In this document: positions 6,924-59,039 of the stretch, piece by piece | Numbering within the stretch: position 1 is the stretch's first letter | Layout of the letters: each line of letters begins with the position of its first letter | From: Neocallimastix sp. 'constans' | Taxonomy: Eukaryota | DNA length: 64,000 nucleotides | Assembly (NCBI GenBank): GCA_050613775.1 | Contig: JBODTK010000016.1 | Location: 620,001-684,000, forward strand | Direction of reading: 5' to 3' | Notes under the pieces: generated by a model | Seen by the model: the letters and a program-made list of their open reading frames with translations, nothing else | What the model was told of the DNA's origin: nothing | Databases searched by the model: none | Translations under genes and position numbers: made by a program

Positions 6924-7360
6924 TATATTAATAAAGATGAGTTTTAAAATGTTATTTTAATTACAATTTGTTTATAAAAGTTGAGTTATATAATAAATAA
7001 AATAATCATTATTTTAAATAAAAGTAACTTAAAGATGATTTAACTATATAATTTTAATTTTGAGATGTTTATAAGTTTGTTTATTTGTTATTTATAATTT
7101 ATTAAATTTGTTTATTATTTTGTTTATTTGTAGTTTTAGAAAAATATTATTTATTAATTTATTTTAGTTTTTAATTAAAACTATTAATGATTAATTAATT
7201 TATTATTATTTTATTTTAATTATTTTTTATTTAATTAAATTTTCTTTAATATGGATTTAATTTTTTTTTTTTTTTTTAGAATGGATTAATTTTTGGGTTA
7301 AGTTAAATAAGAATTTATTATTTGTTATTTATTTTAATTTTATAATTTCATTATTTATCA
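6924..7360 (-). mobile_element. Truncated LTR, family G
   Basis: Near-identical to ~10274-10701; ends ttatttatCA; left side fused to F gag. Confidence 0.8.
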
Positions 7361-7362
7361 AA

Positions 7363-8103
7363 TGACAAACGATTCTATTATCTTAATTTGAAGTTATTAC
7401 TTCAAAAGTGATAATAGATGTATCAAGTTTGATTTAATATAAAATTTAATATAAATGAATTTGTTTTATTATTATTAATAATTAAGTTATTATTATTCCA
7501 GCTTAACACTGAATTGTTATTAATTTTTCAAAATTATACATTTCTTTTGTGTTTAATATTAATTTTTATTATTATTTATTAATTTTTATTATTATTTATT
7601 AATTTTTATTATTATTTATTAATTTTTATTATTATTTATTAATTTAACATTTGGTTATTATTTTTTTTTATTACATTTCTAATAACAACGAGAAATTAAT
7701 TTTATAAAATATTTACAAGTATTTATATTTTTACAATAATTTAAAGTATTTACAATTTTTAATAATAAAACAATTAAGAATAATTATATTTATAAAAATA
7801 AACAATAAAATAAACAAATAAACAATTAATACAAGAATTATTATAAACAAAGAATTCAAAATAATAAAAAAAAAGAGAAAATTGTTTACAAACTATTTAC
7901 TTTTAATTAAAAAGAGAAATTAATTAACATTAGTATTTTATTATTTTAAAAATTAAAATAGAATTAAAGTATAATTTCGAGTTTTAGAATTTAATTAAAA
8001 TAAATTTTTTTTATTATGATTTTAATTTCAAATTTTTATTTATTAATTTGTTGTTGAATAGGTTAGATATTATTCAAGCTTTCTAATAATTTTATGCAAT
8101 CTG
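7363..8103 (-). mobile_element. Solo LTR family L, right terminus split by later insertions
   Basis: Starts TGACAAAC after CAAA; right end ggttagatattattcaagc..caatctg resembles the family A U3 end; missing terminal bases reappear at 8927-8932 and 10702-10708; internal 19-bp tandem repeat at ~7560-7625. Confidence 0.6.
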
Positions 8104-8926
8104 TGTTACAGTTCGTAACAATTTTTGGATTATAATATTTTAACACTTCAATGAATTAAATAAATAAATAAATATTTGTTTTATATAATTTTTATTAAAT
8201 TTATTTCAAATTAAAAAATTAAAAAAAATGTTTTATTAATTACTATCTTCTTAAAAAGTTATTTTAGAATTACATGTATTTATATTTTTTTTTTACATTT
8301 AAAATTTGTTAAGCCTATCTAAAATATTTTCTAAATATTTCTAACTAATTACTAAAATAATGTTTTATATTGATTTTAAATTATTAATATAATTATTATT
8401 TATTTCTAATAAATAATAGTTATATATTATTTAATTATAAAATATTTATTATTATTTAAAATTAATAATATATATAAAAGAAAAATATAAAATTTATACA
8501 GAATTTTTAAGTGTGGTTTAGTAAGTTTTTAGTAATTAAAAATTACCAAAAAAAATATGTTAAATTATCAATATAAAATTTAGTAATTAATTGAATTGAT
8601 TTTTAGAAATTATAATAAATAATATATTTTAGAAAATATAAAATATTAATAATATTGATATAATTATATAATTAATATTAATAATAAAGTGATATTGATA
8701 ATATATTGATATTAATAAAATAATTGAATATTAATAATAATTTTTCATCTTTAATTTGATATTAATAATATATAAAAATTTAATAATAAAATATTAATAA
8801 TAAAATTTAATCAAAGAATATAGGAAAGTTCCAAAGTTTTGAAGAATAAAATAATTTATTTGAGTGGTTAGGTAAGAAAATACAATTCTAACTAAAATAA
8901 TAAGATTATTTGTTCATTCTTTATCA
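8104..8926 (-). mobile_element. Solo LTR family I (related to A)
   Basis: TG..CA termini; TCTG on both sides (8100-8103, 8927-8930); shares blocks with LTR A (aattacatgtattta, gtggtttagt, ggaaagttcc, tgttcattct). Confidence 0.8.
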
Positions 8927-8932
8927 TCTGTA

Positions 8933-9722
8933 TGGTATGGTTCATATAGTTTTAGGAATATAATAATAATTAACACAAATAATAAAATTACAATAAAAAA
9001 AAAATAATTTATTTTAAAATCAATGTTTATTTATTTAAATTTATAAAAGAAAAATAATAATATAATTATTTATTTAATAAAAGTAAGTTATTGATTATTT
9101 TTTTATTTCACTAAAAATTACATGTATTTATATTTTTTTATCAGATTAAAATTTGTAAAGCCTAACTATTTTTTTAATAAACTAATTACTAATTATTTTA
9201 ATAAATGAAACATTTAAATTGAAATTGAATTATTATTTTAGTTAATAATATTATTGTTGTAAATAGTAGTTATATATATTGAATTATTAATTATTTAATA
9301 ATAGTTTAATATTAATATATATAAAATAAAAATAAAGAGATTATACAGAATATTTTAATTGTGGTTTAGTTAAATTTAGTAATTAAAAATAAATTTAAAT
9401 TGATAACGAAAATTTTAATAACTAATTAAATAGATTTGATTATTTTCAATATAACATAATACAAAAGAAATATAATATTAATATATTAAGTGGGCAAGGA
9501 CAATATTCTTGGCTAAAGATTTTTAATACATTATAATGGAATCGGATCGATAATTCAAAAAGGAATTATAAGTTAATTAGTGATTTATTAACTTAAGATT
9601 TCTATTTAGTAATATTTGAAGAATATTGGAAAGTTCCAATTATATAGAATAGAATAATCTATAAGGTTAGAATAATTTATATTATTCTAGCACAATTAGT
9701 ATTATTTGTTCATTCTGTATCA
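8933..9722 (-). mobile_element. Solo LTR family A (variant with canonical TG U3 end)
   Basis: Near-identical to the LTRs of 11551-18568; flanks TGTA / GGTA. Confidence 0.92.
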
Positions 9723-9726
9723 GGTA

Positions 9727-10701
9727 TGATTTATACCTAATATTCTTAATCTACAAAAATTAAATTTTGTAGAAGTGAATATTGGGATAAATACTGAATT
9801 AAATAGAATTAAGAAATTTAAAAAAAATAAATATGTTTTATTATTAAACACAAAAATGTTTTATTAAAAAAAATTTATTTTTATTTTAATATTAATCTTT
9901 ATTTATTTAATAATTAATTTTGTTTAAATTAATAAAATAATTGTTAAAACTAATAAAATAATAAAATAAAATATTTATTATTTATACTAATTTATTTTAA
10001 ATTTTAATAATAAAATTGATTATTAATAACTAATAAAAAATATAATAATTTATCAAAATAATTAATAATCATAAAAAAATTGATTATTAAAAACTAATAA
10101 AATATCTATAATAATTTATTAAATAATTAATAATAAAGAATAATTTATAAGAAATATTTACATGTTTTTATATTTTTCTTTGATTTTAAACTATTTACAT
10201 TAAAAATAATAAAATTAATAAAAGAGAAATAAAGAATAATTTATTATTAAATTAAACAATATTTACAATTAAAATATTAATAAAGATGAGTTTTAAAATG
10301 TTATTTTAATTACAATTTGTTTATAAAAGTTGAGTTATAAAATAAATAAAATAATCATTATTTTAAATAAAAGTAACTTAAAAATTATTTAACTATTTAA
10401 TTTTAATTTTGAGATGTTTATAAGTTTGTTTATTTGTTATTTATAATTTATTAAATTTGTTTATTATTTTGTTTATTTGTAGTTTTAGAAAAATATTATT
10501 TATTAATTTATTTTAGTTTTTAATTAAAACTATTAATGATTAATTAATTTATTATTATTTTATTTTAATTATTTTTTATTTAATTAAATTTTCTTTAATA
10601 TGGATTTAATTTTTTTTTAGAATGAATTAATTTTTGGGTTAAGTTAGACAAGAATTTGTTCTTTATTATTTATTTTAATTTAATAATTTTGTTATTTATC
10701 A
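9727..10701 (-). mobile_element. Solo LTR family G
   Basis: TGAT..ATCA termini; GGTA on both sides (9723-9726, 10702-10705); partial second copy at 6924-7360. Confidence 0.8.
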
Positions 10702-10711: not shown

Positions 10712-11546
10712 TGTTATGGTTCGGGTTTTATTAGAATTTTTATTTAATTATTTATTTTTAATATTTTTCTGTCTACATTTTAATTATTGAAAAACTTCAC
10801 TTATTTATACTTTTTGAAAAAAAATAAATATGTAAAGCCTTTCTACATTTTATTATCATATTTAAAAATAAATATTTACTATTACTAATTAATTAAAATT
10901 TTATATTAATTTAAATTAACTAATTCATAAGTATTTTTATTTTAATAAATTTTGTTTATATAATTTTATATTATTTTTCATATACTAAAACTAAATTATT
11001 TAATATATACGAAAAGTAACAAACAAAATTTAAAAAGATTTTACAGAAAAATAAAGTTATTTTAATCAAGAATGTTAATATAATATTCTTATATTTTATA
11101 TAAAATAAATTTAAAAACTATAATATATTTAATATTTATTATTAATCAATTAAGATTTGATTTTATTTGTGGGGAATAAAAATATTAAATAATCAATTTA
11201 AAAATAAAATAAAATACTAAAAAGAATACAAGTTTAATATTGATACAATATAATAATAATATAATAATATATTTGAAAATAAAAATAAAATATTAATATT
11301 GATAATAAACACTTTAATAAAATAATAAAATTTAAGGTTAAATTATAGATATTGATATTAATAATAAAAATATAAAATTATTGATAATATTTTAGAAACT
11401 TTTAATAAAAATAAAAAAAAATATATTTAGAAAATATTTTAGTATAGAAAATATAGTAAAGTAATATTAAGTAAAGAATAATATAATGGATTCTAAAGTA
11501 AGTTGAAATTCTAATTAATAATCCATTATATGTTCGTTCTTTACCA
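10712..11546 (-). mobile_element. Solo LTR family B
   Basis: Near-identical to 19138-19971; ACAA on both sides (10708-10711, 11547-11550). Confidence 0.93.
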
Positions 11547-12359
11547 ACAATGGTATGGTTCATATAGTTTTAGGAATATAATAATAATTAACACAAATAA
11601 TAAAATTACAATAAAAATAATTTTGTTTTAAAATCAATGTTTATTTATTTAAATTTATAAAAGAAAAATAATAATATAATTATTTATTTAATAAAAGTAA
11701 GTTATTGATTATATTTTATTTCACTAAAAATTACATGTATTTATATTTTTCTTATCAAATTAAAATTTGTAAAGCCTAACTATTTTTTTAATAAACTAAT
11801 TACTAATTATTTTTATAAATAAAACATTTAAATTGAAATTGAATTATTATTTTAGTTAATAATATTATTGTTATAAATAGTAGTTATATATTATTGAATT
11901 ATTAATTATTTAATAATAGTTTAATATTAATATATATAAAATAAAAATAAAGAGATTATACAGAATATTTTATTGTGGTTTAGTTAAATTTAGTAATTAA
12001 AAATAAATTTAAATTGATAACGAAAATTTTAATAACTAATTAAATAGATTTGATTATTTTCAATATAACATAATACAAAAGAAATATAATATTAATATAT
12101 TAAGTGGGCAAGGACAATATTCTTGGCTAAAGATTTTTAATACATTATAATGGAATCGGATCGATAATTCAAAAAGGAATTATAAGTTAATTAGTGATTT
12201 ATTAACTTAAGATTTCTATTTAGTAATATTTGAAGAATATTGGAAAGTTCCAATTATATAAAATAGAATAATCTATAAGGTTAGAATAATTTATATTATT
12301 CTAGCACAACTAGTATTATTTGTTCATTCTGTATTAAGATGCCCCCGCTAAGACTCAAG

Positions 12360-15300
12360 CTAGGTAGAAGCTGAGTTAAACTTGACAATATTTTTCAAAT
12401 GAACATTACGATTCATTTGTATATTAGTAGCAGGATCGGCTAAAGTGACTGTATTGAATTGTTTCTTTACCACTTTCATAGGTCCAACAAAGTAAGGTTC
12501 TAATTTAGTTCGATTAAAGTTTCTTACTAGTACTAAATCACCTGGTTTTATTCTTTTAGATTGATTCATACTGGTCTTTTCTTCTCTCCTAGTAGCCCAA
12601 TACTTCGAAGCATTTTTGATATTAGATGCGGCCTCCATTACCCATTGGTAGTGTGATACAAATTTTTCCAGTAGAATTTCGTCAGAAGACTTATTTATAC
12701 CCTTAGTTGGTCTGGCAGCAATGTCAAAAGGTTGTTGGTCCTCCCTTCCATAAACTAATTCAAAACTTGAATGGTTGGTGATTGAGTTTTTAGTAGTTCT
12801 TAAAGCCCAAAGTGCAGATGGTAAAATTTCATCCCATTCTTTGTGTTGTTGTCCTAGTAATCGTAATAATTTTCCAATTTCTTTATTACGATTCTCAACT
12901 AAACCATTGCTTTCAGGATGATATGGATTGATAAATTTAACATATACATCGTATAAATCAAGGAAGATTTTTGTCATATCTGATGTAAATTGTGTTCCAT
13001 TATCAGTAGTGATAATTTGAGGTACACCGTGTCGAGCAAATACATTAATTAAAAATTTTATCACATCCTGAGAAGTAACATTTTCAGTGGGCTCTGCCTC
13101 AACCCATTTAGTAAAATAATCAACCACAACGATTATATATTGATTATTATTTCTGGTTTTACTTAGAGGTCCTATAATGTCCAATCCTAAGTGTGTAAAT
13201 GGTCCTTCCACTTCAGTTGGTTTATCTTCCGTTGGTTCAGGGTATGATTGAGATTTATTTAATTGACATTTTTCACATTTACCTATAATTCGCTTAATGT
13301 CATTAACCATATTGTTCCAATAGTAGCTCTTTTTCAAACGTTGGTATGTCTTGTAATAGCCTTCGTGTCCTATACTGTGTGCTTGAAAAATTAATTGAAG
13401 TTTTTCTTTTGTATCTGTAACTAATTTTCTATAATTATTGCCATCAACAAAGTAGTCCACACCATCAATTGTCGTAAATTTTTCTTCAATAAATTCCTTA
13501 ATGGTCCTTGAAAGCAGGTTTTCATCTTGTTCCTTGATAATTTGTGTTGTTAAGACAACTTTTTCTTTTTCATTTTTCATTCTTGATAAAGCATCTGCGA
13601 CAACATTATTCTTTCCAGTTTCATATCGTAAATCAATTCCTAACATACTGACAGTCAAACACCATCTAGTATGACGAGAATTTTGTGGTTCTTTACTTTT
13701 AAGTAATCCGATTAATGGTCTATGATCTGTATATACTATAGTTTGCTTAGGATTTCCCATAATATAAGATTTTAATTTATTAATACAGTAAATTAGAGCA
13801 GCACCTTCTAGATCCGTAATTCCATAATTCTTTTCCGATTTAGATAAACTTCTACTAATATAATGAACCGGATGTTTCTTTCCAGTTTCATCATCCTTTT
13901 GTAAAAGCACACCGCCTATACAATCATAGGAAGCATCTGTTCTTATAATAAATTCTCTATCGAATCTAGGAAATCTTAATATTGGGGCATTGATTAATCT
14001 TTCCTTAAGAATTTTAAAACTTTCTTCTTGTTCCTTTTTCCATTCAAACTTAACACCTTTTCTTAATAGAGTGCATAGAGGTGCAGTAACTTTTGCAAAG
14101 TCCTTAATGAAATTTCTATAATATCCAATGGCTCCTAAAAATGATCGAAGTTCATGAATGTTAGAGGGAGCCTTCCATTCTTTAATAGCTTTAACTTTGT
14201 TTTCCAATGGACTTAAACCTTCTGAGGATACTTTATGTCCCAGTACTTCTACTTCAGTTTGCATGAAAGAACATTTTTCAATATTGATTTTTAACTTATG
14301 TTCCTTGAATATTTTTAAGACTTGTTTAAGATGTTCTAGGTGTTCTTCTTCAGTTCTTGAGTAGATTAAAATATCATCGATAAAGTTATAGACGCATTTT
14401 CCTATTAAGGGAAATAGTATACGGTTCATTTCTCTTTGGAATGTAGCTGGAGCACCTGTTAAACCGAAGAGCATTACCTTGAATTGGTAGTTTCCGAACT
14501 TAGTTGTAAAGGTAGTGATTTCAACACTATCATCATCCATTAATATTTGATGATAACCGGAATAAAGATCTAATGTTGAGAAGATTTTTGCTCCATCTAA
14601 GCTATCAAAAATTTCCTCAATATTTGGTAAAGAATAAGAATCCTTCATAGTTGCTTCATTTACTTTCCTATAGTCAATACACAGGCGCCATTTACCGTTC
14701 TTTTTAGGCACAAGTACTACTGGTGATGACCATTCTGAACATGAAGGTTCAATTAATCGTTTATATATGAGTTTGGTTAATTCTTCTTTTAAGATATCTG
14801 TTTTTAATTTACTAAGTCGATAAAATTTTTGTTTAATAGGTTTAACTCCTTCCTTAAGAATAATTTTGTGTGTTGATAAATCTGAAGGTGTTAATTCTTC
14901 AGAAGAAGTTGCAATTATATCAATATATTCTTCAAGTAATTTAGTAATAGCTTCTCTATAATTTGAATTAATTGTACTTTGAAAAACTGTGTCATATATA
15001 TATTTTATGGGTGGTAATCCTTCAATCGTTTTCAATTGTTGCTTAGCTTCTTGGTGATTCAATGCTTTGATTACACATAATAATTTTTCTTCGTCATCAT
15101 ATTCATTATTAATAGGTGCAATTTCTTCAATTAAACCTTGATCATTAAATCGACAAAGACTATATCTAATTGGATGTATAAATAACTGGTTATCAATTTG
15201 AGTTTTGAGGTTGATTAATATATCATAGAATGGATCCTCCTTGTCTATAATTCTACACGTAACAAGTAGTTCTAGTTCATTAATTTTTACGGGAACTTTG

Positions 15301-16361
15301 ATTAACACATCTTCTGAGTAATCATCATTCATCGTTGCTAAACGTATTCGTCCTGCACTAACTCCTATAGGTTCATACTGATAAGGTAATTTATCTAAAA
15401 ATTGCTTTGTGATAATACTTAAGTTGCTACATGAATCTATTAAAGCCTTACCACGAACTCCATCTACTATTACATCAACCATAGCAATATCATCTTCTTG
15501 TGGTTCATGATGTTTACTTTTATATGTATGATCTATATTGTTCGTTATTATTGTAGTAGCACACATATTATCCACTGCACCTGAAATTTTAGTATTATTC
15601 TTTTCTAATTTAAGTCCTTGTGATACTTGAGACCGTATCTTTGGAGCAACGTCCAATAATTGTCCAAATGTAATATTGCAATTACTGGAGTTTAAATCTT
15701 TGATCACGTCATAACTATCACAATCAGTTTGCATTTGTATTCTTCTTGGAATTCTAGTTGGCATAATTTCAGTTGACTTTTCTGATGATTTTTCTTGAAT
15801 TAATTTATTTAAAGTTTGTTTAGAATTATTTCCTTCCTGAGAGGTTTCTTCATTAATAATATTAACATTACTATTTTTATTATTTTCCACAGAAGTACTA
15901 GTACTAGCTCTTTCCTTATCTCTTAGCTCTTTCTCAATCCTCTTTTCTTTCTCTATTCTGGGTTGAGCCATAATCGAAGGATGTAATTGAGTTGTTGGCT
16001 TTTTGACTGGTCGCGATGTTCCCCTTAATTGATTTTCTTTTTGTTTTCGTAAACCTGGAGTAACTATTGGCTTAGGATCATCTCTTAGACTACGGTGAAC
16101 CCTCTTTCCTCTTTGGTCACTAGTCTCTTCATCTTTAGGATTTGCCTTTCTCTTTATAACGTTTACTAAGTAGTCCAATTCTTTGGAACCATCCGACTCA
16201 TCATCAAAATCTTCGTAATAATTCGTAGTAGTACCTTCTTGGAAATCAGCAGTTTCTTCATAATCATCATCTTCTTTTAAGTCAACTGTTTTGGAACGAT
16301 GGCAGACTGAAGCAATTTTTTTGACGATGGGAGTGCTTCTACTCCCTTTTAGTGGTTTAAA
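12360..16361 (-). CDS. pol: Pol (PR-RT-RNaseH-IN) of A1, entered by -1 frameshift; several substitutions at conserved sites
   Basis: Open from the slippery site; LIDSCS, FIDD, TDASY, HHCC and DDE motifs; MLFGL and YDCIG where copy 2 has MPFGL and YDGIG. Confidence 0.9.
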   Translation of the reverse strand, partial: FKPLKGSRSTPIVKKIASVCHRSKTVDLKEDDDYEETADFQEGTTTNYYEDFDDESDGSKELDYLVNVIKRKANPKDEETSDQRGKRVHRSLRDDPKPIVTPGLRKQKENQLRGTSRPVKKPTTQLHPSIMAQPRIEKEKRIEKELRDKERASTSTSVENNKNSNVNIINEETSQEGNNSKQTLNKLIQEKSSEKSTEIMPTRIPRRIQMQTDCDSYDVIKDLNSSNCNITFGQLLDVAPKIRSQVSQGLKLEKNNTKISGAVDNMCATTIITNNIDHTYKSKHHEPQEDDIAMVDVIVDGVRGKALIDSCSNLSIITKQFLDKLPYQYEPIGVSAGRIRLATMNDDYSEDVLIKVPVKINELELLVTCRIIDKEDPFYDILINLKTQIDNQLFIHPIRYSLCRFNDQGLIEEIAPINNEYDDEEKLLCVIKALNHQEAKQQLKTIEGLPPIKYIYDTVFQSTINSNYREAITKLLEEYIDIIATSSEELTPSDLSTHKIILKEGVKPIKQKFYRLSKLKTDILKEELTKLIYKRLIEPSCSEWSSPVVLVPKKNGKWRLCIDYRKVNEATMKDSYSLPNIEEIFDSLDGAKIFSTLDLYSGYHQILMDDDSVEITTFTTKFGNYQFKVMLFGLTGAPATFQREMNRILFPLIGKCVYNFIDDILIYSRTEEEHLEHLKQVLKIFKEHKLKINIEKCSFMQTEVEVLGHKVSSEGLSPLENKVKAIKEWKAPSNIHELRSFLGAIGYYRNFIKDFAKVTAPLCTLLRKGVKFEWKKEQEESFKILKERLINAPILRFPRFDREFIIRTDASYDCIGGVLLQKDDETGKKHPVHYISRSLSKSEKNYGITDLEGAALIYCINKLKSYIMGNPKQTIVYTDHRPLIGLLKSKEPQNSRHTRWCLTVSMLGIDLRYETGKNNVVADALSRMKNEKEKVVLTTQIIKEQDENLLSRTIKEFIEEKFTTIDGVDYFVDGNNYRKLVTDTKEKLQLIFQAHSIGHEGYYKTYQRLKKSYYWNNMVNDIKRIIGKCEKCQLNKSQSYPEPTEDKPTEVEGPFTHLGLDIIGPLSKTRNNNQYIIVVVDYFTKWVEAEPTENVTSQDVIKFLINVFARHGVPQIITTDNGTQFTSDMTKIFLDLYDVYVKFINPYHPESNGLVENRNKEIGKLLRLLGQQHKEWDEILPSALWALRTTKNSITNHSSFELVYGREDQQPFDIAARPTKGINKSSDEILLEKFVSHYQWVMEAASNIKNASKYWATRREEKTSMNQSKRIKPGDLVLVRNFNRTKLEPYFVGPMKVVKKQFNTVTLADPATNIQMNRNVHLKNIVKFNSAST

Positions 16362-17266: not shown

Positions 17267-17422
17267 AAAATAAAATTTATTGTATCTATTGAATGCTAAA
17301 CCTCGTAATGTATAAATTGTTATAAAAAAGTAAAAATAAAAAAAATTAAAATAAAATAAATCTTTTAACTAATAAAATTATTAATTATTTATTATTATTA
17401 ATCACTTATTAAATTATAATAA

Positions 17423-17588
17423 TCGTGCAATCTGATAGTACACACTGTCTGACGTGCAGCTTACCTCTTGAAAGGTGTCATGCCACGCGTGTGCCACGGT
17501 TACTATTTTCAATATAAAAAATAGCAGTCCAGAGCCTACTAGCCCAATTACTATGTAGGATAAACTTAACCCGGAAATCTATGCACGA
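17423..17588 (-). ncRNA. Conserved structured RNA motif in the family A 5' leader
   Basis: GC-rich island closed by TCGTGCA/TGCACGA; homologous to 27821-27966 with compensatory changes. Confidence 0.7.
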
Positions 17589-17753
17589 ATATTAGTTTAA
17601 TTTAATATTAATTAATATTTTTAACAATTAATAATAATTAGTTAAAAATATAAAAATTTTTTTTCTTTAAAAAAAATATTTTTTTTGTTTTATTAGAAAA
17701 ATTATTTATTAATATTATAATTTTATCCCTAATGTATTAATTTATTATTATAT

Positions 17754-17771
17754 TCCCCGATATCTCCACCA
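17754..17771 (-). promoter_or_regulatory. Primer binding site, tRNA-Ala-like (TGGTGGAGATATCGGGGA)
   Basis: 18 nt starting TGG, 8 nt from the LTR; complementary to a ..TCTCCACCA tRNA-Ala-type 3' end. Confidence 0.85.
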
Positions 17772-25772: not shown

Positions 25773-25891
25773 TTGAAAATTTAAAAATGGTATTAATGCT
25801 ATGATATCCAATTTAAAAATATGTTTACTTTAAAAATATATTTAATAACAAAAAAAAATAAATTTATCTTTGTTTTATAATAATATAATTA

Positions 25892-27100: not shown

Positions 27101-27141
<41 letters not shown>

Positions 27142-27630: not shown

Positions 27631-27718
27631 TGTTAACTTTTTATTATTTTTTTTATTATTATTTTTTATCTTTAATCTATAATTAAATAAAGTTACTACA
27701 AAAACTAAAGTTTTCCAA

Positions 27719-39483: not shown

Positions 39484-39498
39484 TAATTTACTAGTTAT

Positions 39499-40509: not shown

Positions 40510-40526
40510 TTATGAGTTTCGTTACA

Positions 40527-41048: not shown

Positions 41049-41053
41049 TTTCA

Positions 41054-49979: not shown

Positions 49980-50539
49980 TGTAACAAATCTTAATGTTAC
50001 TTAAGATTGTTATAAGGTTTTTTACACAAAAGGTTCTCGACACTAAAGTAATTCAAAATATGTTTTATTAAAATAAGTTTTTTTATTAGTAAAAATATAA
50101 ATTATTATTTTATTAATTAATCATTGTAATATTTTAAATTACTTTAAAATTAATTAATAAAAGCACAAGTAAAAATATTTTATTATGAAATTTTACACCT
50201 ATTTATAGTTTTTCAGGAAAATTAATTATTTTAAGTTATCAGTTGTTATTAGTAATTATTAGAAATAAAAGAAAATTAAAGAAAATTAAAGAAAACAAGT
50301 TTTCTTTCTAGAAAATGAATCTTAGATAAAAAATGATAAAAAATATTAATAAAATAGATTTTTCTAGTTTTATCGGTTCAATTGTTTAACCGATAAACAC
50401 TAGTAATTTTTTTAATATTCTAGTTATAATAAATAAAAAGTTATTAAAATTTGGAAAGAGTGGGTGTCGAACCCTAAGGGTTCAGCCCGATGGTTATGGT
50501 AACTTACCATTGAATCATAGTTACTAATTTATTATTTAT
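49980..50539 (-). mobile_element. LTR family M copy 2, interrupted by element A2
   Basis: Near-identical to 38936-39498 and broken at the same nucleotide. Confidence 0.9.
50452..50524 (-). promoter_or_regulatory. tRNA-like Pol III internal promoter in LTR M copy 2
   Basis: A box TGATTCAATGG at +8..18; B box GGTTCGACACC at +52..62; CCA at +71..73, then TTTT. Confidence 0.7.
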
Positions 50540-51507
50540 TAATACAGAATGAACAAATAATACTAATTGTGCTAGAATAATATAAATTATTCTAACCTTA
50601 TAGATTATTCTATTCTATATAATTGGAACTTTCCAATATTCTTCAAATATTACTAAATAGAAATCTTAAGTTAATAAATCACTAATTAACTTATAATTCC
50701 TTTTTGAATTATCGATCCGATTCCATTATAATGTATTAAAAATCTTTAGCCAAGAATATTGTCCTTGCCCACTTAATATATTAATATTATATTTCTTTTG
50801 TATTATGTTATATTGAAAATAATCAAATCTATTTAATTAGTTATTAAAATTTTCGTTATCAATTTAAATTTATTTTTAATTACTAAATTTAACTAAACCA
50901 CAATAAAATATTCTGTATAATCTCTTTATTTTTATTTTATATATATTAGTATTAAACTATTATTAAATAATTAATAATTCAATAATATATAACTACTATT
51001 TATAACAATAATATTATTAACTAAAATAATAATTCAATTTCAATTTAAATGTTTTATTTATAAAAATAATTAGTAATTAGTTTATTAAAAAAATAGTTAG
51101 GCTTTACAAATTTTAATTTGATAAAAAATATAAATACATGTAATTTTAGTGAAATAAAATATAATCAATAACTTTCTTTTTTATTAAATAAATAATTATA
51201 TTATTATTTTTCTTTTATAAATTTAAATAAATAAATATTGATTTTAAAACAAAATTATTTTTATTGTAATTTTATTATTTGTGTTAATTATTATTATATT
51301 CCTAAAATTATATGAACCATACCATGAAAAATTGGTGGAGATATCGGGGAATATAATAATAAATTAATACATTGGGGATAAAATTATAATATTAATAAAT
51401 AATTTTTCTAATAAAACAAATAATTTTTTTAAAAAACAATTTTTATATTTTTAACTAATTATTATTAATTGTTAAAAATATTAATTAATATTAAATTAAA
51501 CTAATAT

Positions 51508-51673
51508 TCGTGCATAGATTTCCGGGTTAAGTTTATCCTACATAGTAATTGGGCTAGTAGGCTCTGGACTGCTATTTTTTATATTGAAAATAGTAACCGT
51601 GGCACACGCGTGGCATGACACCTTTCAAGAGGTAAGCTGCACGTCAGACAGTGTGTACTATCAGATTGCACGA
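51508..51673 (+). ncRNA. Conserved structured leader RNA motif (A2 copy; another copy at 57741-57906)
   Basis: Same motif as 17423-17588. Confidence 0.7.
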
Positions 51674-51829
51674 TTATTATAATTTAATAAATGATTAATA
51701 ATAATAAATAATTAATAATTTTATTAGTTAAAAGATTTATTTTTTTTTAATTTTTTTTTATTTTTACTTTTTATAACAATTTATACATTACGAGGTTTAG
51801 CATTCTATAGATACAATAAATTTTATTTA

Positions 51830-52747
51830 ATGAGAACATCCAGTACTTCCAGTACTCCAACAGAGAGTACTCCAGAAAGTAAGCTTAGCTTCCGAGAATT
51901 AAAGAAAGAATTAAAAGATTTTGAAAAGCTTACTAAACAAAACCTAGACATCAATTCCTGGGCAAACGAGTTAAAGGCATGGATAAAATACCAACATATC
52001 AAGGATCCTGAAACTATTTTTACTGCTTGTATATTAACGGCTTCTGGAGAACCAAGAGAAATTATCCAAGAACTAGAAGATGGAAATGACCTTACTGAAG
52101 ATGAAGATTCTGATTTCGATAGCGATAGTGAAGGAGAAGATGATGAAGAAAGTGAATCTACTACCACCTACCCAAGCCTTGATGAAATCATAAATCATCT
52201 GAAGACTTTCTATGGACTTAAAGAAGATCAAACCAATTTGTTACGAGAATTACGTTCCATGAAAATAAAGAAGAACGAGAAAGTTAAAGATTTTAATGTC
52301 CGTTATAGATCTTTGTACCATAAATTGGATAAAAAGAGAAGAAGAAAAATTAGTGTTTTAGATTATGCAGATTCCTTAACCAATAATCCTGACGCATGGA
52401 GAAAGGTTATGCTTAAAGACCATATTTCTATTACCAAAGCGTTCGCTATAGCCGAAAAAGTTGATCGTTTATCTATTAAAAATAGTACTGAATATTATGA
52501 TAAGACTCATTACAATCTCCTTAACTCTAAAAGTAATTTTAATAAGAACATTTCAAATGATTTTAACAAACCAAAAACCCACAAAAATGTATCTATAGAA
52601 AATATCACTAACAAGATGAAAGAAATGAAAATTAGTACTTGCTGGTTTTGTAGCAATGAAGGACATACCAAACGAAACTGTCCTAAATTAAATTCTATAT
52701 TGGAAAATAACCGCAAGAAGTTTTATGAAAATCATTTAAACCACTAA
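51830..52747 (+). CDS. gag: Gag of A2
   Basis: 305 aa; CCHC knuckle CWFCSNEGHTKRNC. Confidence 0.93.
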   Translation: MRTSSTSSTPTESTPESKLSFRELKKELKDFEKLTKQNLDINSWANELKAWIKYQHIKDPETIFTACILTASGEPREIIQELEDGNDLTEDEDSDFDSDSEGEDDEESESTTTYPSLDEIINHLKTFYGLKEDQTNLLRELRSMKIKKNEKVKDFNVRYRSLYHKLDKKRRRKISVLDYADSLTNNPDAWRKVMLKDHISITKAFAIAEKVDRLSIKNSTEYYDKTHYNLLNSKSNFNKNISNDFNKPKTHKNVSIENITNKMKEMKISTCWFCSNEGHTKRNCPKLNSILENNRKKFYENHLNH

Positions 52748-52767
52748 AAGGGAGTAGAAGCACTCCC
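52735..52767 (+). promoter_or_regulatory. -1 ribosomal frameshift signal
   Basis: T TTA AAC in gag phase, followed 8 nt later by hairpin GGGAGT-AGAAGC-ACTCCC; pol is in the -1 frame. Confidence 0.85.
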
Positions 52768-55700
52768 ATCGTCAAAAAAATTGCTTCAGTCTGCCATCGT
52801 TCCAAAATAGTTGACTTAAAAGAAGATGATGATTATGAAGAAACTGCTGATTTCCAAGAATGTACTACTACGGATTATTACGAAGATTTTGATGATAAGT
52901 CGGATGGTTCCAAAGAATTGAATTACTTAGTAAACGTTATAAAGAGAAAGGCAAATCATAAAGATGAAGAGACTAGTGACCAAAGAGAAAAGAGGGTTCA
53001 CCGTAGTCTAAGAGATGATCCTAAGCCAATAGTTACTCCAGGTTTACGAAAACAAAAAGAAAATCAATTAAGGGGAACATCGCGACCAGTCAAAAAGCCA
53101 ACAACTCAATTACATCCTTCGATTATGGTTCAACCTAGAATAGAAAAAGAAAAGAGAATTGAGAAAGAGCTAAGAGATAAGGAAAGAGCTAGTACTAGTA
53201 CTTCTGTGGAAAATAATAATAATAATAGTAATGTTAATGTTATTAATGAAGAAACTTCTCAGGAAGAAAATAATTCTAAACAAACTTTAAATAAATTAAT
53301 TCAAGAAAAATCATCAGAAAAGTCAACTGAAATTATGCCAACTAGAATTCCAAGAAGAATACAAATGCAAACTGATTGTGATAGTTATGACGTGATCAAA
53401 GATTTAAACTCCAGTAATTGCAATATTACATTTGGACAATTATTGGACGTTGCTCCAAAGATACGGTCTCAAGTATCACAAGGACTTAAATTAGAAAAGA
53501 ATAATACTAAAATTTCAGGTGCAGTGGATAATATGTGTGCTACTACAATAATAACGAACAATATAGATCATACATATAAAAGTAAACATCATGAACCACA
53601 AGAAGATGATATTGCTATGGTTGATGTAATAGTAGATGGAGTTCGTGGTAAGGCTTTAATAGATTCATGTAGCAACTTAAGTATTATCACAAAGCAATTT
53701 TTAGATAAATTACCTTATCAGTATGAACCTATAGGAGTTAGTGCAGGACGAATACGTTTAGCAACAATGAATGATGATTACTCAGAAGATGTGTTAATCA
53801 AAGTTCCCGTAAAAATTAATGAACTAGAACTACTTGTTACGTGTAGAATTATAGACAAGGAGGATCCATTCTATGATATATTAATCAACCTCAAAACTCA
53901 AATTGATAACCAGTTATTTATACATCCAATTAGATATAGTCTTTGTCGATTTAATGATCAAGGTTTAATTGAAGAAATTACACCTATTAATAATGAATAT
54001 GATGACGAAGAAAAATTATTATGTGTAATCAAAGCATTGAATCACCAAGAAGCTAAGCAACAATTGAAAACGATTGAAGGATTACCACCCATAAAATATA
54101 TATATGACACAGTTTTTCAAAGTACAATTAATTCAAATTATAGAGAAGCTATTACTAAATTACTTGAAGAATATATTGATATAATTGCAACTTCTTCTGA
54201 AGAATTAACACCTTCAGATTTATCACCACACAAAATTATTCTTAAGGAAGGAGTTAAACCTATTAAACAAAAATTTTATCGACTTAGTAAATTAAAAACA
54301 GATATCTTAAAAGAAGAATTAACCAAACTCATATATAAACGATTAATTGAACCTTCATGTTCAGAATGGTCATCACCAGTAGTACTTGTGCCTAAAAAGA
54401 ACGGTAAATGGCGCCTGTGTATTGACTATAGGAAAGTAAATGAAGCAACTAAGAAGGATTCTTATTCTTTACCAAATATTGAGGAAATTTTTGATAGCTT
54501 AGATGGAGCAAAAATCTTCTCAACATTAGATCTTTATTCCGGTTATCATCAAATATTAATGGATGATGATAGTGTTGAAATCACTACCTTTACAACTAAG
54601 TTCGGAAACTACCAATTCAAGGTAATGCCCTTCGGTTTAACAGGTGCTCCAGCTACATTCCAAAGAGAAATGAACCGTATACTATTTCCCTTAATAGGAA
54701 AATGCGTCTATAACTTTATAGATGATATTTTAATCTACTCAAGAACTGAAGAAGAACACCTAGAACATCTTAAACAAGTCTTAGAAATATTCAAGGAACA
54801 TAAGTTAAAAATCAATATCGAAAAGTGTTCTTTCATGCAAACTGAAGTAGAAGTACTTGGACATAAAGTATCCTCAGAAGGTTTAAGTCCATTGGAAAAC
54901 AAAGTTGAAGCTATTAAAGAATGGAAGGCTCCCTCTAACATTCATGAACTTCGATCATTTTTAGGAGCCATTGGATATTATAGAAATTTTATTAAGGACT
55001 TTGCAAAAGTTACTGCTCCTCTCTGCACTCTATTAAGAAAAGGTATTAAGTTTGAATGGAAAAAGGAACAAGAAGAAAGTTTTAAAATTCTTAAGGAAAG
55101 ATTAATCAATGCCCCAATATTAAGATTTCCTAGATTTGATAGAGAATTTATTATAAGAACAGATGCTTCCTATGATGGAATAGGCGGTGTGCTTTTACAA
55201 AAGGATGATGAAACTGGAAAGGAGCATCCGGTTCATTATATTAGTAGAAGTTTATCTAAATCGGAAAAGAATTATGGAATTACGGATCTAGAAGGTGCCG
55301 CTCTAATTTACTGTATTAATAAATTAAAATCTTATATTATGGGAAATCCTAAGCAAACTATAGTATATACAGACCATAGACCCTTAATCGGATTACTTAA
55401 AAATAAGGAACCACAAAACTCTCGCCATACAAGATGGTGTTTGACTGTCAGTATGTTAGGAATTGATTTACGATATGAAGCTGGGAAGAATAATGTTGTT
55501 GCAGACGCTTTATCAAGAATGAAAAATGAAAAAGAAAAAGTTATCTTAACAACACAAATTATCAAAGAACAAGATGAAAACCTGCTTTCAAGAACCATTA
55601 AGGAATTTATTGAAGAAAAATTTACGACAATTGATGGTGTGGACTACTTTGTTGATGGCAATAATTATAGAAAATTAGTTACAGATACAAAAGAAAAACT

Positions 55701-56739
55701 TCAATTAATTTTTCAAGCGCACAGTATAGGACACGAAGGCTATTACAAGACATATCAACGTTTGAAAAAGAGCTACTATTGGAACAATATGGTTAATGAC
55801 ATTAAGCGAATTATAGGTAAATGTGAAAAATGTCAATTAAATAAATCTCAATCATACCCTGAACCAACGGAAGATAAACCAACTGAAGTGGAAGGACCAT
55901 TTACACACTTAGGATTGGACATTATAGGACCTCTAAGTAAAACCAGAAATAATAATCAATATATAATCGTTGTGGTTGATTATTTTACTAAATGGGTTGA
56001 GGCAGAGCCCACTGAAAATGTTACTTCTCAGGATGTGATAAAATTTTTAATTAATGTATTTGCTCGACACGGTGTACCTCAAATTATCACTACTGATAAT
56101 GGAACACAATTTACATCAGATATGACAAAAATCTTCCTTGATTTATATGATGTATATGTTAAATTTATCACTCCATATCATCCTGAAAGCAATGGTTTAG
56201 TTGAGAATCGTAATAAAGAAATTGGAAAATTATTACGATTACTAGGAAAACAACACAAAGAGTGGGATGAAATTTTACCATCTGCACTTTGGGCTTTAAG
56301 AACTACTAAAAACTCAATTACCAACCATTCAAGCTTTGAATTAGTTTATGGAAGGGAGGACCAACAACCTTTTGACATTGCTGCCAGACCAACTAAGGGT
56401 ATAAATAAGTCTTCTGACGAAATTCTACTGGAAAAATTTGTATCACACTACCAATGGGTAATGGAGGCCGCATCTAATATCAAAAATGCTTCGAAGTATT
56501 GGGCTACTAGGAGAGAAGAAAAGACCAGTATGAATCAAGCTAAAAGAATAAAACCAGGTGATTTAGTACTAGTAAGAAACTTTAATCGAACTAAATTAGA
56601 ACCTTACTTTGTTGGACCTATGAAAGTGGTAAAGAAACAATTCAATACAGTCACTTTAGCTGATCCTGCTACTAATATACAAATGAATCGTAATGTTCAT
56701 TTGAAAAATATTGTCAAGTTTAACTCAGCTTCTACCTAG
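52735..56739 (+). CDS. pol: Pol of A2 (-1 frame, PR-RT-RH-IN)
   Basis: Open from T-TTA-AAC to TAG; catalytic motifs present. Confidence 0.93.
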   Translation, partial: FKPLKGSRSTPIVKKIASVCHRSKIVDLKEDDDYEETADFQECTTTDYYEDFDDKSDGSKELNYLVNVIKRKANHKDEETSDQREKRVHRSLRDDPKPIVTPGLRKQKENQLRGTSRPVKKPTTQLHPSIMVQPRIEKEKRIEKELRDKERASTSTSVENNNNNSNVNVINEETSQEENNSKQTLNKLIQEKSSEKSTEIMPTRIPRRIQMQTDCDSYDVIKDLNSSNCNITFGQLLDVAPKIRSQVSQGLKLEKNNTKISGAVDNMCATTIITNNIDHTYKSKHHEPQEDDIAMVDVIVDGVRGKALIDSCSNLSIITKQFLDKLPYQYEPIGVSAGRIRLATMNDDYSEDVLIKVPVKINELELLVTCRIIDKEDPFYDILINLKTQIDNQLFIHPIRYSLCRFNDQGLIEEITPINNEYDDEEKLLCVIKALNHQEAKQQLKTIEGLPPIKYIYDTVFQSTINSNYREAITKLLEEYIDIIATSSEELTPSDLSPHKIILKEGVKPIKQKFYRLSKLKTDILKEELTKLIYKRLIEPSCSEWSSPVVLVPKKNGKWRLCIDYRKVNEATKKDSYSLPNIEEIFDSLDGAKIFSTLDLYSGYHQILMDDDSVEITTFTTKFGNYQFKVMPFGLTGAPATFQREMNRILFPLIGKCVYNFIDDILIYSRTEEEHLEHLKQVLEIFKEHKLKINIEKCSFMQTEVEVLGHKVSSEGLSPLENKVEAIKEWKAPSNIHELRSFLGAIGYYRNFIKDFAKVTAPLCTLLRKGIKFEWKKEQEESFKILKERLINAPILRFPRFDREFIIRTDASYDGIGGVLLQKDDETGKEHPVHYISRSLSKSEKNYGITDLEGAALIYCINKLKSYIMGNPKQTIVYTDHRPLIGLLKNKEPQNSRHTRWCLTVSMLGIDLRYEAGKNNVVADALSRMKNEKEKVILTTQIIKEQDENLLSRTIKEFIEEKFTTIDGVDYFVDGNNYRKLVTDTKEKLQLIFQAHSIGHEGYYKTYQRLKKSYYWNNMVNDIKRIIGKCEKCQLNKSQSYPEPTEDKPTEVEGPFTHLGLDIIGPLSKTRNNNQYIIVVVDYFTKWVEAEPTENVTSQDVIKFLINVFARHGVPQIITTDNGTQFTSDMTKIFLDLYDVYVKFITPYHPESNGLVENRNKEIGKLLRLLGKQHKEWDEILPSALWALRTTKNSITNHSSFELVYGREDQQPFDIAARPTKGINKSSDEILLEKFVSHYQWVMEAASNIKNASKYWATRREEKTSMNQAKRIKPGDLVLVRNFNRTKLEPYFVGPMKVVKKQFNTVTLADPATNIQMNRNVHLKNIVKFNSAST

Positions 56740-57551
56740 CTTGAGTCTTAGCGGGGGCATCTTAATACAGAATGAACAAATAATACTAATTGTGCTAGAA
56801 TAATATAAATTATTCTAACCTTATAGATTATTCTATTCTATATAATTGGAACTTTCCAATATTCTTCAAATATTACTAAATAGAAATCTTAAGTTAATAA
56901 ATCACTAATTAACTTATAATTCCTTTTTGAATTATCGATCCGATTCCATTATAATGTATTAAAAATCTTTAGCCAAGAATATTGTCCTTGCCCACTTAAT
57001 ATATTAATATTATATTTCTTTTGTATTATGTTATATTGAAAATAATCAAATCTATTTAATTAGTTATTAAAATTTTCGTTATCAATTTAAATTTATTTTT
57101 AATTACTAAATTTAACTAAACCACAATAAAATATTCTGTATAATCTCTTTATTTTTATTTTATATATATTAGTATTAAACTATTATTAAATAATTAATAA
57201 TTCAATAATATATAACTACTATTTATAACAATAATATTATTAACTAAAATAATAATTCAATTTCAATTTAAATGTTTTATTTATAAAAATAATTAGTAAT
57301 TAGTTTATTAAAAAAATAGTTAGGCTTTACAAATTTTAATTTGATAAAAAATATAAATACATGTAATTTTAGTGAAATAAAATATAATCAATAACTTACT
57401 TTTATTAAATAAATAATTATATTATTATTTTTTCTTTTATAAATTTAAATAAATAAATATTGATTTTAAAACAAATTATTTTTTTTATTATTGTAATTTT
57501 ATTATTTGTGTTAATTATTATTATATTCCTAAAATTATATGAACCATACCA

Positions 57552-58095
57552 TGAAAAATTGGTGGAGATATCGGGGAATATAATAATAAATTAATACATT
57601 GGGGATAAAATTATAATATTAATAAATAATTTTTCTAATAAAACAAATATTTTTTTGAAAAAAAAAAAACAATTTTTATATTTTTAACTAATTATTATTA
57701 ATTGTTAAAAATATTAATTAATATTAAATTAAACTAATATTCGTGCATAGATTTCCGGGTTAAGTTTATCCTACATAGTAATTGGGCTAGTAGGCTCTGG
57801 ACTGCTATTTTTTATATTGAAAATAGTAACCGTGGCACACGCGTGGCATGACACCTTTCAAGAGGTAAGCTGCACGTCAGACAGTGTGTATTATCAGATT
57901 GCACGATTATTATAATTTAATAAATGATTAATAATAATAAATAATTAATAATTTTATTAGTTAAAAGATTTATTTTTTTTAATTTTTTTTTACTTTTACT
58001 TTTTATAACAATTTATACATTACGAGGTTTAGCATTCTATAGATACAATAAATTTTATTTAATGAGAACATCCAGTACTTCCAGTACTCCAACAG
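57552..58095 (+). mobile_element. Start of a tandem family A copy sharing the A2 3' LTR (PBS, leader, first ~11 gag codons)
   Basis: Repeat of 51325-51863; PBS 57560-57577; ATG at 58062. Confidence 0.92.
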
Positions 58096-58159
58096 GAAAG
58101 TACAATTTAGTAAAGAATTATTAATAATAAAATAAAGGTTATTAATTCATTCTTTACCA
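58094..58159 (-). mobile_element. Terminal fragment of a family J LTR
   Basis: Matches ~30589-30654; followed by CAAA. Confidence 0.88.
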
Positions 58160-58163
58160 CAAA

Positions 58164-58952
58164 TGGTATGGTTCATATAATTTTAGGAATATAATAATAA
58201 TTAACACAAATAATAAAATTACAATAATAAAAAAAATAATTTGTTTTAAAATCAATATTTATTTATTTAAATTTATAAAAGAAAAAATAATAATATAATT
58301 ATTTATTTAATAAAAGTAAGTTATTGATTATATTTTATTTCACTAAAATTACATGTATTTATATTTTTTATCAAATTAAAATTTGTAAAGCCTAACTATT
58401 TTTTTAATAAACTAATTACTAATTATTTTTATAAATAAAACATTTAAATTGAAATTGAATTATTATTTTAGTTAATAATATTATTGTTATAAATAGTAGT
58501 TATATATTATTGAATTATTAATTATTTAATAATAGTTTAATACTAATATATATAAAATAAAAATAAAGAGATTATACAGAATATTTTATTGTGGTTTAGT
58601 TAAATTTAGTAATTAAAAATAAATTTAAATTGATAACGAAAATTTTAATAACTAATTAAATAGATTTGATTATTTTCAATATAACATAATACAAAAGAAA
58701 TATAATATTAATATATTAAGTGGGCAAGGACAATATTCTTGGCTAAAGATTTTTAATACATTATAATGGAATCGGATCGATAATTCAAAAAGGAATTATA
58801 AGTTAATTAGTGATTTATTAACTTAAGATTTCTATTTAGTAATATTTGAAGAATATTGGAAAGTTCCAATTATATAGAATAGAATAATCTATAAGGTTAG
58901 AATAATTTATATTATTCTAGCACAATTAGTATTATTTGTTCATTCTGTATTA
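58164..58952 (-). mobile_element. Solo LTR family A, 15 bp upstream of tRNA-Pro
   Basis: CAAA TSD (58160-58163, 58953-58956); reverse complement of 56763-57551. Confidence 0.95.
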
Positions 58953-58967
58953 CAAAACCAAAGGATT

Positions 58968-59039
58968 GGCTCAATGGTTTAGTGGTATAATTCTCGCTTA
59001 GGGTGCGAGAGGTCCCGGGTTCAATTCCCGGTTGAGCCC
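58968..59039 (+). tRNA. tRNA-Pro (AGG)
   Basis: Acceptor GGCTCAA/TTGAGCC, anticodon arm CTCGC-TTAGGGT-GCGAG, T arm CCGGG-TTCAATT-CCCGG; T-run terminator follows. Confidence 0.97.

What the first reader, a model, noticed from the sequence alone, without database searches (positions are those of the whole stretch)
6924..59039. A ~52-kb retrotransposon stack built by serial insertion 13-26 bp upstream of one tRNA-Pro gene
Seen: nine LTR families (G, L, I, A, B, H, J, K, C) abut each other, separated only by 2-6 nt: G'-AA-L..TCTG-I-TCTGTA-A-GGTA-G-GGTATCACAA-B-ACAA-A1-TTCT-H-TTCT-B-TCTG-J-TCTG-K-TCTG-C ... J-CAAA-A-CAAAACCAAAGGATT-tRNA. Collapsing the 4-bp duplications gives one target, ..TCTGTATCA|CAAAACCAAAGGATT|tRNA, i.e. 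the terminus of a previous LTR plus the tRNA 5' flank. Reconstructed distances at insertion: 13 (G'), 15 (L, J, last A), 16 (B, A), 22 (A, G), 24 (I), and about 25-26 for the TCTG/TTCT set. The last set is less certain because it needs LTR-LTR recombination. All orientable members point U3 toward the tRNA. Known: yeast Ty3 and Dictyostelium DGLT-A integrate just upstream of tRNA genes via Pol III factors. Inference: a multi-family tRNA-targeting Gypsy radiation whose stack records insertion order, oldest farthest from the tRNA.
Basis: partly seen in the sequence, partly recalled or inferred. Interest (0 to 1): 0.9.

Follow-up and report, generated by a model that had tools for sequence, protein, structure and literature searches.

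The report
Retrotransposons queue at tRNA start site
In what is likely an anaerobic gut fungus, 14 copies or remnants of nine kinds of jumping gene are packed end to end in front of one tRNA gene, and two of these kinds also sit at the same spacing in front of a tRNA-like promoter inside another jumping gene's end repeat, which likely means that this lineage aims at RNA polymerase III start sites, as yeast Ty3 does but without the protein part Ty3 uses for aiming.

Summary
The stack is real. All quoted junctions are there, 8 of 11 bounded units have exact 4-bp duplications, and a replay reproduces the distances of 13-26 nt with two inferred LTR-LTR recombinations, both backed by LTR variants. 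Two corrections: 19 of the 52 kb (38936-58093) is a nested block, not part of the tRNA queue, and in it J and A copies face the other way. They sit in two copies of an unrelated LTR (M) that carries tRNA-type A/B boxes. The U3 end lies 23 nt before the A box at both M copies and at tRNA-Pro: the best evidence for Pol III-directed integration. Host: likely Neocallimastigomycota. The elements are Ty3/Gypsy, with 4-bp duplications and no integrase chromodomain, so they are DGLT-A-like rather than Ty3. No genome-wide test, empty allele or read support was obtained; the link of the left stack to this tRNA crosses a deletion. The scan noted stacks and LTR-borne boxes before, on three other pieces of this genome. 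New variant of a known kind.

The parts
6925..7360 (.). G', left-truncated LTR of family G; reconstructed first insertion, 13 nt upstream of the tRNA (weak: two spacer bases)
   Evidence: 95% match to the right part of G; 13 substitutions in 428 sites
7363..8099 (.). L, solo LTR, not orientable; its last 9 nt are dispersed in later spacers; left duplication CAAA equals tRNA flank -15..-12
8104..8926 (-). I, solo LTR related to A, TSD TCTG/TCTG, reconstructed -24
8933..9722 (-). A0, solo LTR of family A, TSD TGTA/GGTA (one mismatch), -22
9727..10701 (.). G, solo LTR, TSD GGTA/GGTA, -22
10712..11546 (-). B0, solo LTR of family B, TSD ACAA/ACAA, -16
11551..18568 (-). A1, full-length Ty3/Gypsy element (gag 16349-17368, pol 12360-16367, both open); flanks ACAA/TTCT; inferred recombinant of two A copies (-16 and -26)
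   Evidence: its 3' LTR shares 3 diagnostic sites with A0, its 5' LTR with A2/A4
18573..19133 (.). H, solo LTR, TSD TTCT/TTCT, -26
19138..29630 (-). B1, full-length element with broken pol; flanks TTCT/TCTG; inferred recombinant (-26 and -25)
   Evidence: its LTRs differ by 12 of 833 sites, each is closer to B0
28844..29579 (.). Q, unrelated solo LTR with 5-bp TSD AAGTA inside B1's 5' LTR
29635..30654 (-). J1, solo LTR, TSD TCTG/TCTG, -25
   Evidence: U3 end fixed by PPT and integrase end in L098
30659..33240 (-). K, non-autonomous two-LTR unit with a 282-codon ORF of no Pfam family, TSD TCTG/TCTG, -25
33245..38935 (-). C, full-length element with broken pol; 5' LTR cut after 320 nt by M1; left flank TCTG, -25
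38936..40526 (-). M1, 576-nt LTR with inverted 6-nt termini and tRNA-type A box (39476) and B box 44 nt further (2 mismatches), interrupted by J2
39499..40509 (+). J2, inverted solo LTR, TSD TTAT/TTAT, U3 end 23 nt before M1's A box
40527..45128 (-). N, chromovirus 3' LTR (40527-41525) and pol with SH3 and chromodomain
45129..49979 (-). O, chromovirus-clade element without chromodomain (3' LTR from about 45866, gag-pol 45877-49617)
49980..50539 (-). M2, second M copy, A box (50517) and perfect B box (50473); its U3 tip is lost
50540..58093 (+). A2 (full length, open gag 51728-52747 and pol 52729-56739) and tandem stub A3 sharing the LTR 56763-57551; U3 end 23 nt before M2's A box; ends at a deletion junction with short microhomology to J
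58094..58159 (-). J3, last 66 nt of a J LTR, right flank CAAA, -15
58164..58952 (-). A4, solo LTR, TSD CAAA/CAAA, 15 nt before tRNA +1, 23 nt before its A box
58968..59039 (+). tRNA-Pro(AGG) gene with a T5 run just downstream

Best explanation
A gut-fungal lineage of Ty3/Gypsy retrotransposons without an integrase chromodomain lies stacked 13-26 nt upstream of a tRNA gene and at the same spacing before tRNA-type A/B boxes in another LTR, likely because its integration complex is tethered to the RNA polymerase III initiation factors assembled on these promoters. Shown: abutting elements, 4-bp duplications, a 23-nt U3-to-A-box offset at three sites, U3 facing the promoter in every orientable copy. 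Inferred: each new copy lands between the promoter and the previous copy, because the internal promoter survives every insertion, so older copies are pushed away; LTR-LTR recombination makes solo LTRs, chimeras (A1, B1) and a tandem (A2/A3); LTR M inserted into C's 5' LTR and opened a second, oppositely oriented landing site; one deletion then removed the right-hand ends of the nested block. Predicted: the tether is TFIIIC or TFIIIB bound through RNase H, the integrase N-terminal extension or the SH3 fold, as proposed for DGLT-A, not through a Ty3-type chromodomain.
For: Exact 4-bp TSDs in 8 of 11 bounded units, P about 4e-14. Forward replay places all 16 events (14 seen, 2 inferred) at 13-26 nt; TTCT and TCTG are found at 26 and 25 in A1's independently read LTR end, and L's left 4-mer equals the tRNA flank CAAA (site frequency 0.005 in flanking host DNA). 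With at most one B-box mismatch a both-strand scan of the window finds A+B box pairs only at tRNA-Pro and M2 (shuffles: mean 0.1); with two mismatches M1 and two coding-region hits are added (shuffles: mean 1.55); U3 ends of A4, A2 and J2 are each 23 nt from the A-box T. J2 and A2 are different families in two M copies with different left neighbours. Both inferred recombinants show discordant LTRs. A-family divergence from A4 falls with distance: 11, 8, 5 substitutions. A, B, C group with gut-fungal relatives apart from N and O (quick tree, SH-aLRT 90 and 99). Integrase ends 36 residues after GPY/F in A and B, 17-58 in 75 of 103 relatives with a detectable motif, 105 in chromodomain-bearing N; Ty3 runs 108 residues past the last aligned position, A only 10. 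Known precedent: Ty3, DGLT-A, Tj1, Tca8 (PMC5911963, PMC5006619, passages).
Against: One window only: no genome is held, collection scans gave no LTR-flank junction, and no reads were laid (searches returned no data). The residue that would tie the TTCT/TCTG set and the left stack to this tRNA lies in a deleted segment; the tie rests on 4-mers. Two recombinations and one substitution must be assumed. Values for I, A0, G use a reconstructed L end. M1's B box has two mismatches, at which level chance hits occur. K's LTR copies differ by 27 of 377 sites although K is placed late. Every insertion also lies within 0-17 nt of an older LTR end, except the first. No binding or transcription of M was shown. 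The 38-row group holding A, B, C is below the tool's 95 threshold, and Ty3 and DGLT-A were not in the tree.
Confidence: 0.82

Rival explanations
1. The elements target the ends of existing LTRs (or a shared U3-end motif), and the tRNA only marks where the first copy fell.
For: All insertions after G' lie within about 10 nt of a previous LTR end, and J2/A2 lie 13-17 nt from M's terminus. A, I, B, J share a U3-end motif.
Against: The offset to the A box is the same at three sites (23) while the offset to the LTR end differs (0 at the tRNA, 13 in M). M's end does not carry the shared motif. The many LTR ends already buried in the stack (I, A0, B0, A1 3', J1) are intact, and all duplications can be drawn from one 26-nt segment.
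Confidence: 0.08
2. The block is a heterochromatic or gene-poor pile-up of retrotransposons; closeness to a tRNA and to box-like motifs is chance.
For: The genome is repeat-rich; M, N, O, Q and a chromovirus fragment at 4600-5600 lie here without the 13-26 nt spacing.
Against: Random nesting does not give end-to-end abutment with shared 4-mers, one orientation per target, or the same 23-nt offset three times; Q, with a 5-bp duplication, inserted inside an LTR body as ordinary nesting does.
Confidence: 0.03
3. Part of the structure is an assembly artefact, above all the link between the left stack and the tRNA end across 38936-58159.
For: A4 and A2's 3' LTR are identical inverted 789-nt copies 612 nt apart (0 substitutions, 0 indels); the junction at 58093 joins unrelated sequences; no reads were laid.
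Against: Copies of each family differ by 0.5-7% and carry informative variants; the junction has microhomology; L's CAAA matches the tRNA flank 51 kb away; the host gene's protein is on record on a 2.46-Mb contig. The local evidence at A4, J2 and A2 would survive a mis-join.
Confidence: 0.07

Closest known systems
DGLT-A of Dictyostelium (Ty3/gypsy; PMC5006619 and PMC6101501, passages; PMC5911963, part 1 and passages)
   Same: Window of 13-33 nt upstream of the mature tRNA, mean 15; no integrase chromodomain; CCHC gag; TGG-type PBS and PPT; several related families per genome.
   Different: DGLT-A has one ORF and inserts in either orientation, about 20 copies at separate tRNA genes in a compact genome; here gag and pol overlap in the -1 frame, all orientable copies face U3 to the promoter, nine families queue at one gene, and an LTR-borne promoter is also used. 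Relationship untested: no DGLT-A sequence was available.
Ty3 of Saccharomyces cerevisiae (PMC6673722, PMC8632968, passages; PDB 7q5b, 4ol8)
   Same: Gypsy domain order, insertion near the Pol III start site about 15 nt before the mature tRNA; best solved-structure match of A pol.
   Different: 5-bp TSD and +1 frameshift in Ty3; here 4-bp. Ty3's Brf1-binding vestigial chromodomain has no counterpart: A ends 10 residues after the last aligned position, Ty3 108. The untargeted N and O score higher against Ty3 (513, 488 bits) than A does (350; queries differ in length; RT-RNase H chain 313, 304, 286).
Tj1 (S. japonicus), Tca8/beta (C. albicans), Tyl3/Tyl6/Ylt1 (Y. lipolytica) (PMC5911963, passages)
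   Same: Gypsy elements just upstream of tRNA genes; beta spans 6-30 nt.
   Different: All are ascomycete yeasts; the passages seen list no early-diverging fungus and no multi-family stack.
Helenus and Cassandra, LTRs with Pol III promoters (PMC10886601, abstract and passages)
   Same: LTR M carries tRNA-type A and B boxes at tRNA spacing without a cloverleaf.
   Different: Helenus is a TRIM known in rusts, agarics, animals and plants; the text has no mention of Neocallimast* and the passages seen do not describe it as a target of other elements. M's parent element (PBS, PPT, internal part) is not in this window.

Membership tests
Ty3/Gypsy LTR retrotransposon | gag, then PR-RT-RNase H-integrase order between LTRs, PBS and PPT | tested here: met
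   Pfam on A1, A2, B1, C (protease hit in C, weak in B, none in A); PBS/PPT
Pol III start-site-targeting gypsy elements (functional class) | insertion about 13-33 nt upstream of mature tRNA | tested here: met
   A4 directly at 15; 16 replayed events at 13-26
Pol III start-site-targeting gypsy elements (functional class) | most genomic copies adjacent to Pol III genes | not testable with these tools
   no genome held; scans gave no flanks
Pol III start-site-targeting gypsy elements (functional class) | physical tether to TFIIIB or TFIIIC | not tested
   no host factor sequence in hand; no complex prediction sent
Ty3 | 5-bp target-site duplication | tested here: not met
   4 bp in 8 of 11 units, no 5-bp match in any of the 11; Ty3 value from PMC6673722
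Ty3 | vestigial chromodomain after the integrase SH3 fold | tested here: not met
   PMC8632968 passages
Ty3 | +1 gag-pol frameshift | tested here: not met
   A pol is in the -1 frame, with a heptamer at 52735-52741 that fits the recalled -1 slippage pattern
DGLT-A | no integrase C-terminal extension or chromodomain | tested here: met
DGLT-A | single gag-pol ORF | tested here: not met
   separate overlapping ORFs in A1 and A2
DGLT-A | same clade in an RT-RNH-IN tree | not testable with these tools
   no DGLT-A or Ty3 sequence was stored; tree lacks both
Chromovirus | chromodomain or placement in the chromovirus clade | tested here: not met
   A, B, C lie apart from N, O and plant gypsy rows in the quick tree; no Chromo hit
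Helenus-type LTR (for M) | tRNA-type A and B boxes inside the LTR, no functional tRNA | tested here: met
Helenus-type LTR (for M) | miniature non-coding element with PBS, PPT and 5-bp TSD | tested here: inconclusive
   only solo or cut copies, flanks discordant

The most novel reading that the evidence does not exclude
Anaerobic gut fungi hold an independently evolved radiation of chromodomain-less gypsy elements that integrate in one orientation at Pol III start sites, build tens-of-kilobase ordered queues at single promoters, and treat tRNA-type boxes carried by an unrelated mobile LTR as targets, so that one transposon spreads landing sites for another; the two distance classes (13-16 and 22-26 nt) may read out two alternative promoter registers of this tRNA gene.
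Probability: 0.55. Interest if true: 0.82.

Novelty: new variant of a known kind. Interest (0 to 1): 0.72.

Why it matters
Pol III-directed integration is usually explained as a safe-harbour strategy of compact genomes (PMC5006619, passages). Here it appears in a repeat-rich early-diverging fungus, in a many-family lineage that lacks Ty3's aiming domain, which offers a further natural solution to compare with Ty3 and DGLT-A. The same two families hit a real tRNA gene and an LTR-borne promoter at the same offset in one window, which makes the role of the A/B boxes directly testable. Ordered stacks give relative ages of families without a clock. A2 has open frames, and gut fungi lack gene-insertion tools (PMC5796279, start of abstract), so a site-specific native element could be useful.

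Tried and rejected
Read laying gave no data: junction support and empty alleles stay open. Representatives search was dominated by multi-domain fusions; 20 look-ups gave one named protein, an arachnid fusion. ESM Atlas for K's ORF did not answer. M as a tRNA gene: rejected (no ARAGORN or Rfam hit, no cloverleaf). M as 5' LTR of O: not supported, O has its own PPT-linked 3' LTR with no similarity to M. Navaratna et al. 2024 (PMID 38750926, LTR retrotransposons of anaerobic fungi) is not held; I saw only its citation, and it may bear on novelty. Paper searches for tRNA targeting in gut fungi or for such stacks listed no report (listings only). No paper supplements were opened; the DGLT-A alignments in those of PMC5006619 and PMC6101501 bear on the relationship to DGLT-A.
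Full report
Setting. The window is 23% G+C. A host membrane-protein ORF (3235-3939) has 3 hits among 529 candidates, one a 75% identical Orpinomyces gene model, and is on record on a 2.46-Mb contig. The nearest named relative of the A polymerase among 120 listed hits is also an Orpinomyces model (P0084, 50%), beside about 100 unnamed metagenome proteins at 46-99%. The host is therefore likely an anaerobic gut fungus (Neocallimastigomycota). One tRNA gene is present, tRNA-Pro(AGG) 58968-59039, followed by a T5 run.

Observation. Self-comparison and boundary read-outs confirm the nine LTR families and all spacers. Of 11 units with both flanks, 8 have exact 4-bp duplications, A0 has one mismatch, A1 and B1 are discordant; none of the 11 has a 5-bp duplication, whereas the unrelated solo LTR Q does. 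With a chance rate of 0.011 the count has P about 4e-14. A forward replay starting from G' at 13 nt gives L 15, I 24, A0 22, G 22, B0 16, A1 16, an inferred A 26, H 26, B1 26, an inferred B 25, J1 25, K 25, C 25, J3 15, A4 15 (element end to tRNA +1, duplication included). The non-circular parts are: A4's 15 nt, read directly; L's left CAAA equal to the tRNA flank at -15; ACAA at -16; TTCT and TCTG found at 26 and 25 in the A terminus. The circular part is L's last 9 nt, rebuilt from later spacers. Some 4-mers also match at a second distance (9, 36, 51, 54). The two inferred recombinations are backed: A1's LTRs differ at 12 of 782 sites, its 3' LTR shares three variants with A0 and its 5' LTR sides with A2/A4; B1's LTRs differ at 12 of 833 sites and each is closer to B0 (7 and 5). 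A-family substitutions relative to A4 fall along the stack (11, 8, 5); C's LTRs differ at 2 of 321 sites; K's at 27 of 377, which does not fit its late position unless K is a composite.

From 38936 to 58093 (19.2 kb) lies a nested block. LTR M1 cuts C's 5' LTR after 320 nt; next to it are N (pol with SH3 and chromodomain) and O (same clade, no chromodomain), then a second copy M2, 7 substitutions from M1 in 559 sites. J2 sits in M1 with a TTAT duplication, and full-length A2 with a tandem stub A3 sits in M2 at the same position; both face U3 to the left, away from the tRNA. The block ends at 58093 in a junction from A3's gag into the last 66 nt of a J LTR, with short microhomology; one deletion accounts for all missing right-hand ends (inferred). 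M carries on its minus strand a tRNA-type A box and, 44 nt on, a B box (43 nt in tRNA-Pro). With recalled box consensus patterns and at most one B-box mismatch, the both-strand scan finds only tRNA-Pro and M2 (20 shuffles: mean 0.1, maximum 1); with two mismatches M1 and two hits in coding DNA join (shuffles: mean 1.55). The U3 ends of A4, A2 and J2 each lie 23 nt before the A-box T. M is not a tRNA gene; it resembles Helenus-type LTRs (PMC10886601, abstract and passages). I noted this before opening the scan's notes; those notes then showed two reports of LTR-borne boxes with insertions in front and one 19-element stack on other pieces of this genome. They are unchecked AI notes and are not counted as support.

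The elements. A, B and C have gag with a zinc knuckle (A, C), RT, RNase H and integrase, TGG-type PBS and a shared PPT. A1 and A2 have open gag and pol, pol in the -1 frame. In a quick tree of 82 RT rows (202 columns; chosen from 261 eligible rows, every third close and every fourth distant one; careful search unfinished) A, B, C fall in a 38-row group with P0084 (SH-aLRT 90, under the 95 mark), N, O and the fragment at 5000-5599 in a separate group (99). Ty3 and DGLT-A were not in the tree. Against Ty3 Gag-Pol the untargeted N and O score 513 and 488 bits, A 350 (unequal query lengths). The integrase ends 36 residues after GPY/F in A and B and 17-58 residues in 75 of 103 relatives where the motif was detected, against 105 in N. 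Ty3's Brf1-binding chromodomain (PMC8632968, passages) thus has no counterpart.

Mechanism. Shown: geometry, duplications, offsets, orientation. From established knowledge: tRNA promoters are internal, TFIIIC binds the boxes and places TFIIIB upstream, and Ty3 and DGLT-A integrate about 15 nt before the mature tRNA through contacts with TFIIIB or Tfc4 (PMC5911963, PMC6101501, passages). Inferred: the same factors tether these intasomes; since insertion leaves the promoter intact, the site is reused and older copies are displaced; recombination between adjacent same-family LTRs trims the queue; M spreads new targets. The tethering surface is unknown; a DGLT-A-like route through RNase H or the integrase N-terminal extension is my first guess. 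Distances fall in two classes, 13-16 (6 events, plus both M sites) and 22-26 (10 events). A second A-box match begins at 58967, 8 nt before the true one, and would predict 23; one helical turn would predict about 25. Neither is tested.

Rivals. Targeting of LTR ends (0.08) fits the closeness of every later insertion to an older end, but not the fixed A-box offset or the untouched buried ends. Chance pile-up (0.03) fits neither duplications nor orientation. Mis-assembly (0.07) could affect the long-range link, given the identical inverted A4 and A2 LTRs, but not the three local offsets.

Limits. No genome-wide test, empty allele or read support was obtained. Six paper searches listed no report of tRNA targeting in gut fungi or of such stacks, but the one paper devoted to LTR retrotransposons of these fungi (Navaratna et al. 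2024) could not be read.

Verdict. Observation partly confirmed, interpretation partly supported and extended. It works like DGLT-A and Ty3; it fails membership tests for Ty3 (TSD, chromodomain, frameshift) and for DGLT-A (single ORF). New variant of a known kind; interest 0.72.

Noticed in passing
   Followed up: partly
window 27370-27450 (-): A perfect B box in a 5-bp stem like a tRNA T arm inside B1's long 5' region, without an A box; could be a TFIIIC-only site or a tRNA-derived remnant.
   Followed up: partly
window 58967-58977: The start of the tRNA-Pro gene with the preceding T forms a second A-box match 8 nt before the true one; may explain the 22-26 nt class.
   Followed up: partly
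window 56763-57551 and 58164-58952: Two identical inverted 789-nt A LTRs 612 nt apart: very recent copies, gene conversion or assembly polishing.
   Followed up: partly
window 12336, 18568, 50540, 56763, 58952: Five of six A LTRs have TA instead of the canonical CA at the U3 end (only A0 has CA), yet A4 has a clean 4-bp duplication.
   Followed up: no
window 30659-33240: K is a non-autonomous unit with a 282-codon ORF without Pfam match; its right LTR lacks about the first 92 nt.
   Followed up: partly
window 40526/40527: The end of chromovirus N's LTR abuts M1's first base exactly, 28 nt before the box-defined start; chance or deletion, unexplained.
   Followed up: no
window 4612-5599: Chromovirus-clade relic with an integrase piece on + and an RT piece on -, i.e. 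rearranged.
   Followed up: partly
window 3235-3939: Host multi-pass membrane protein with only three database hits and no Pfam family.
   Followed up: partly
window 62872-63648 (-): 258-codon host ORF without Pfam match.
   Followed up: no
L098:1-538: Metagenome contig that joins the J LTR to a PPT and an integrase end 79% like A and B: J belongs to an autonomous element of the same lineage.
   Followed up: yes
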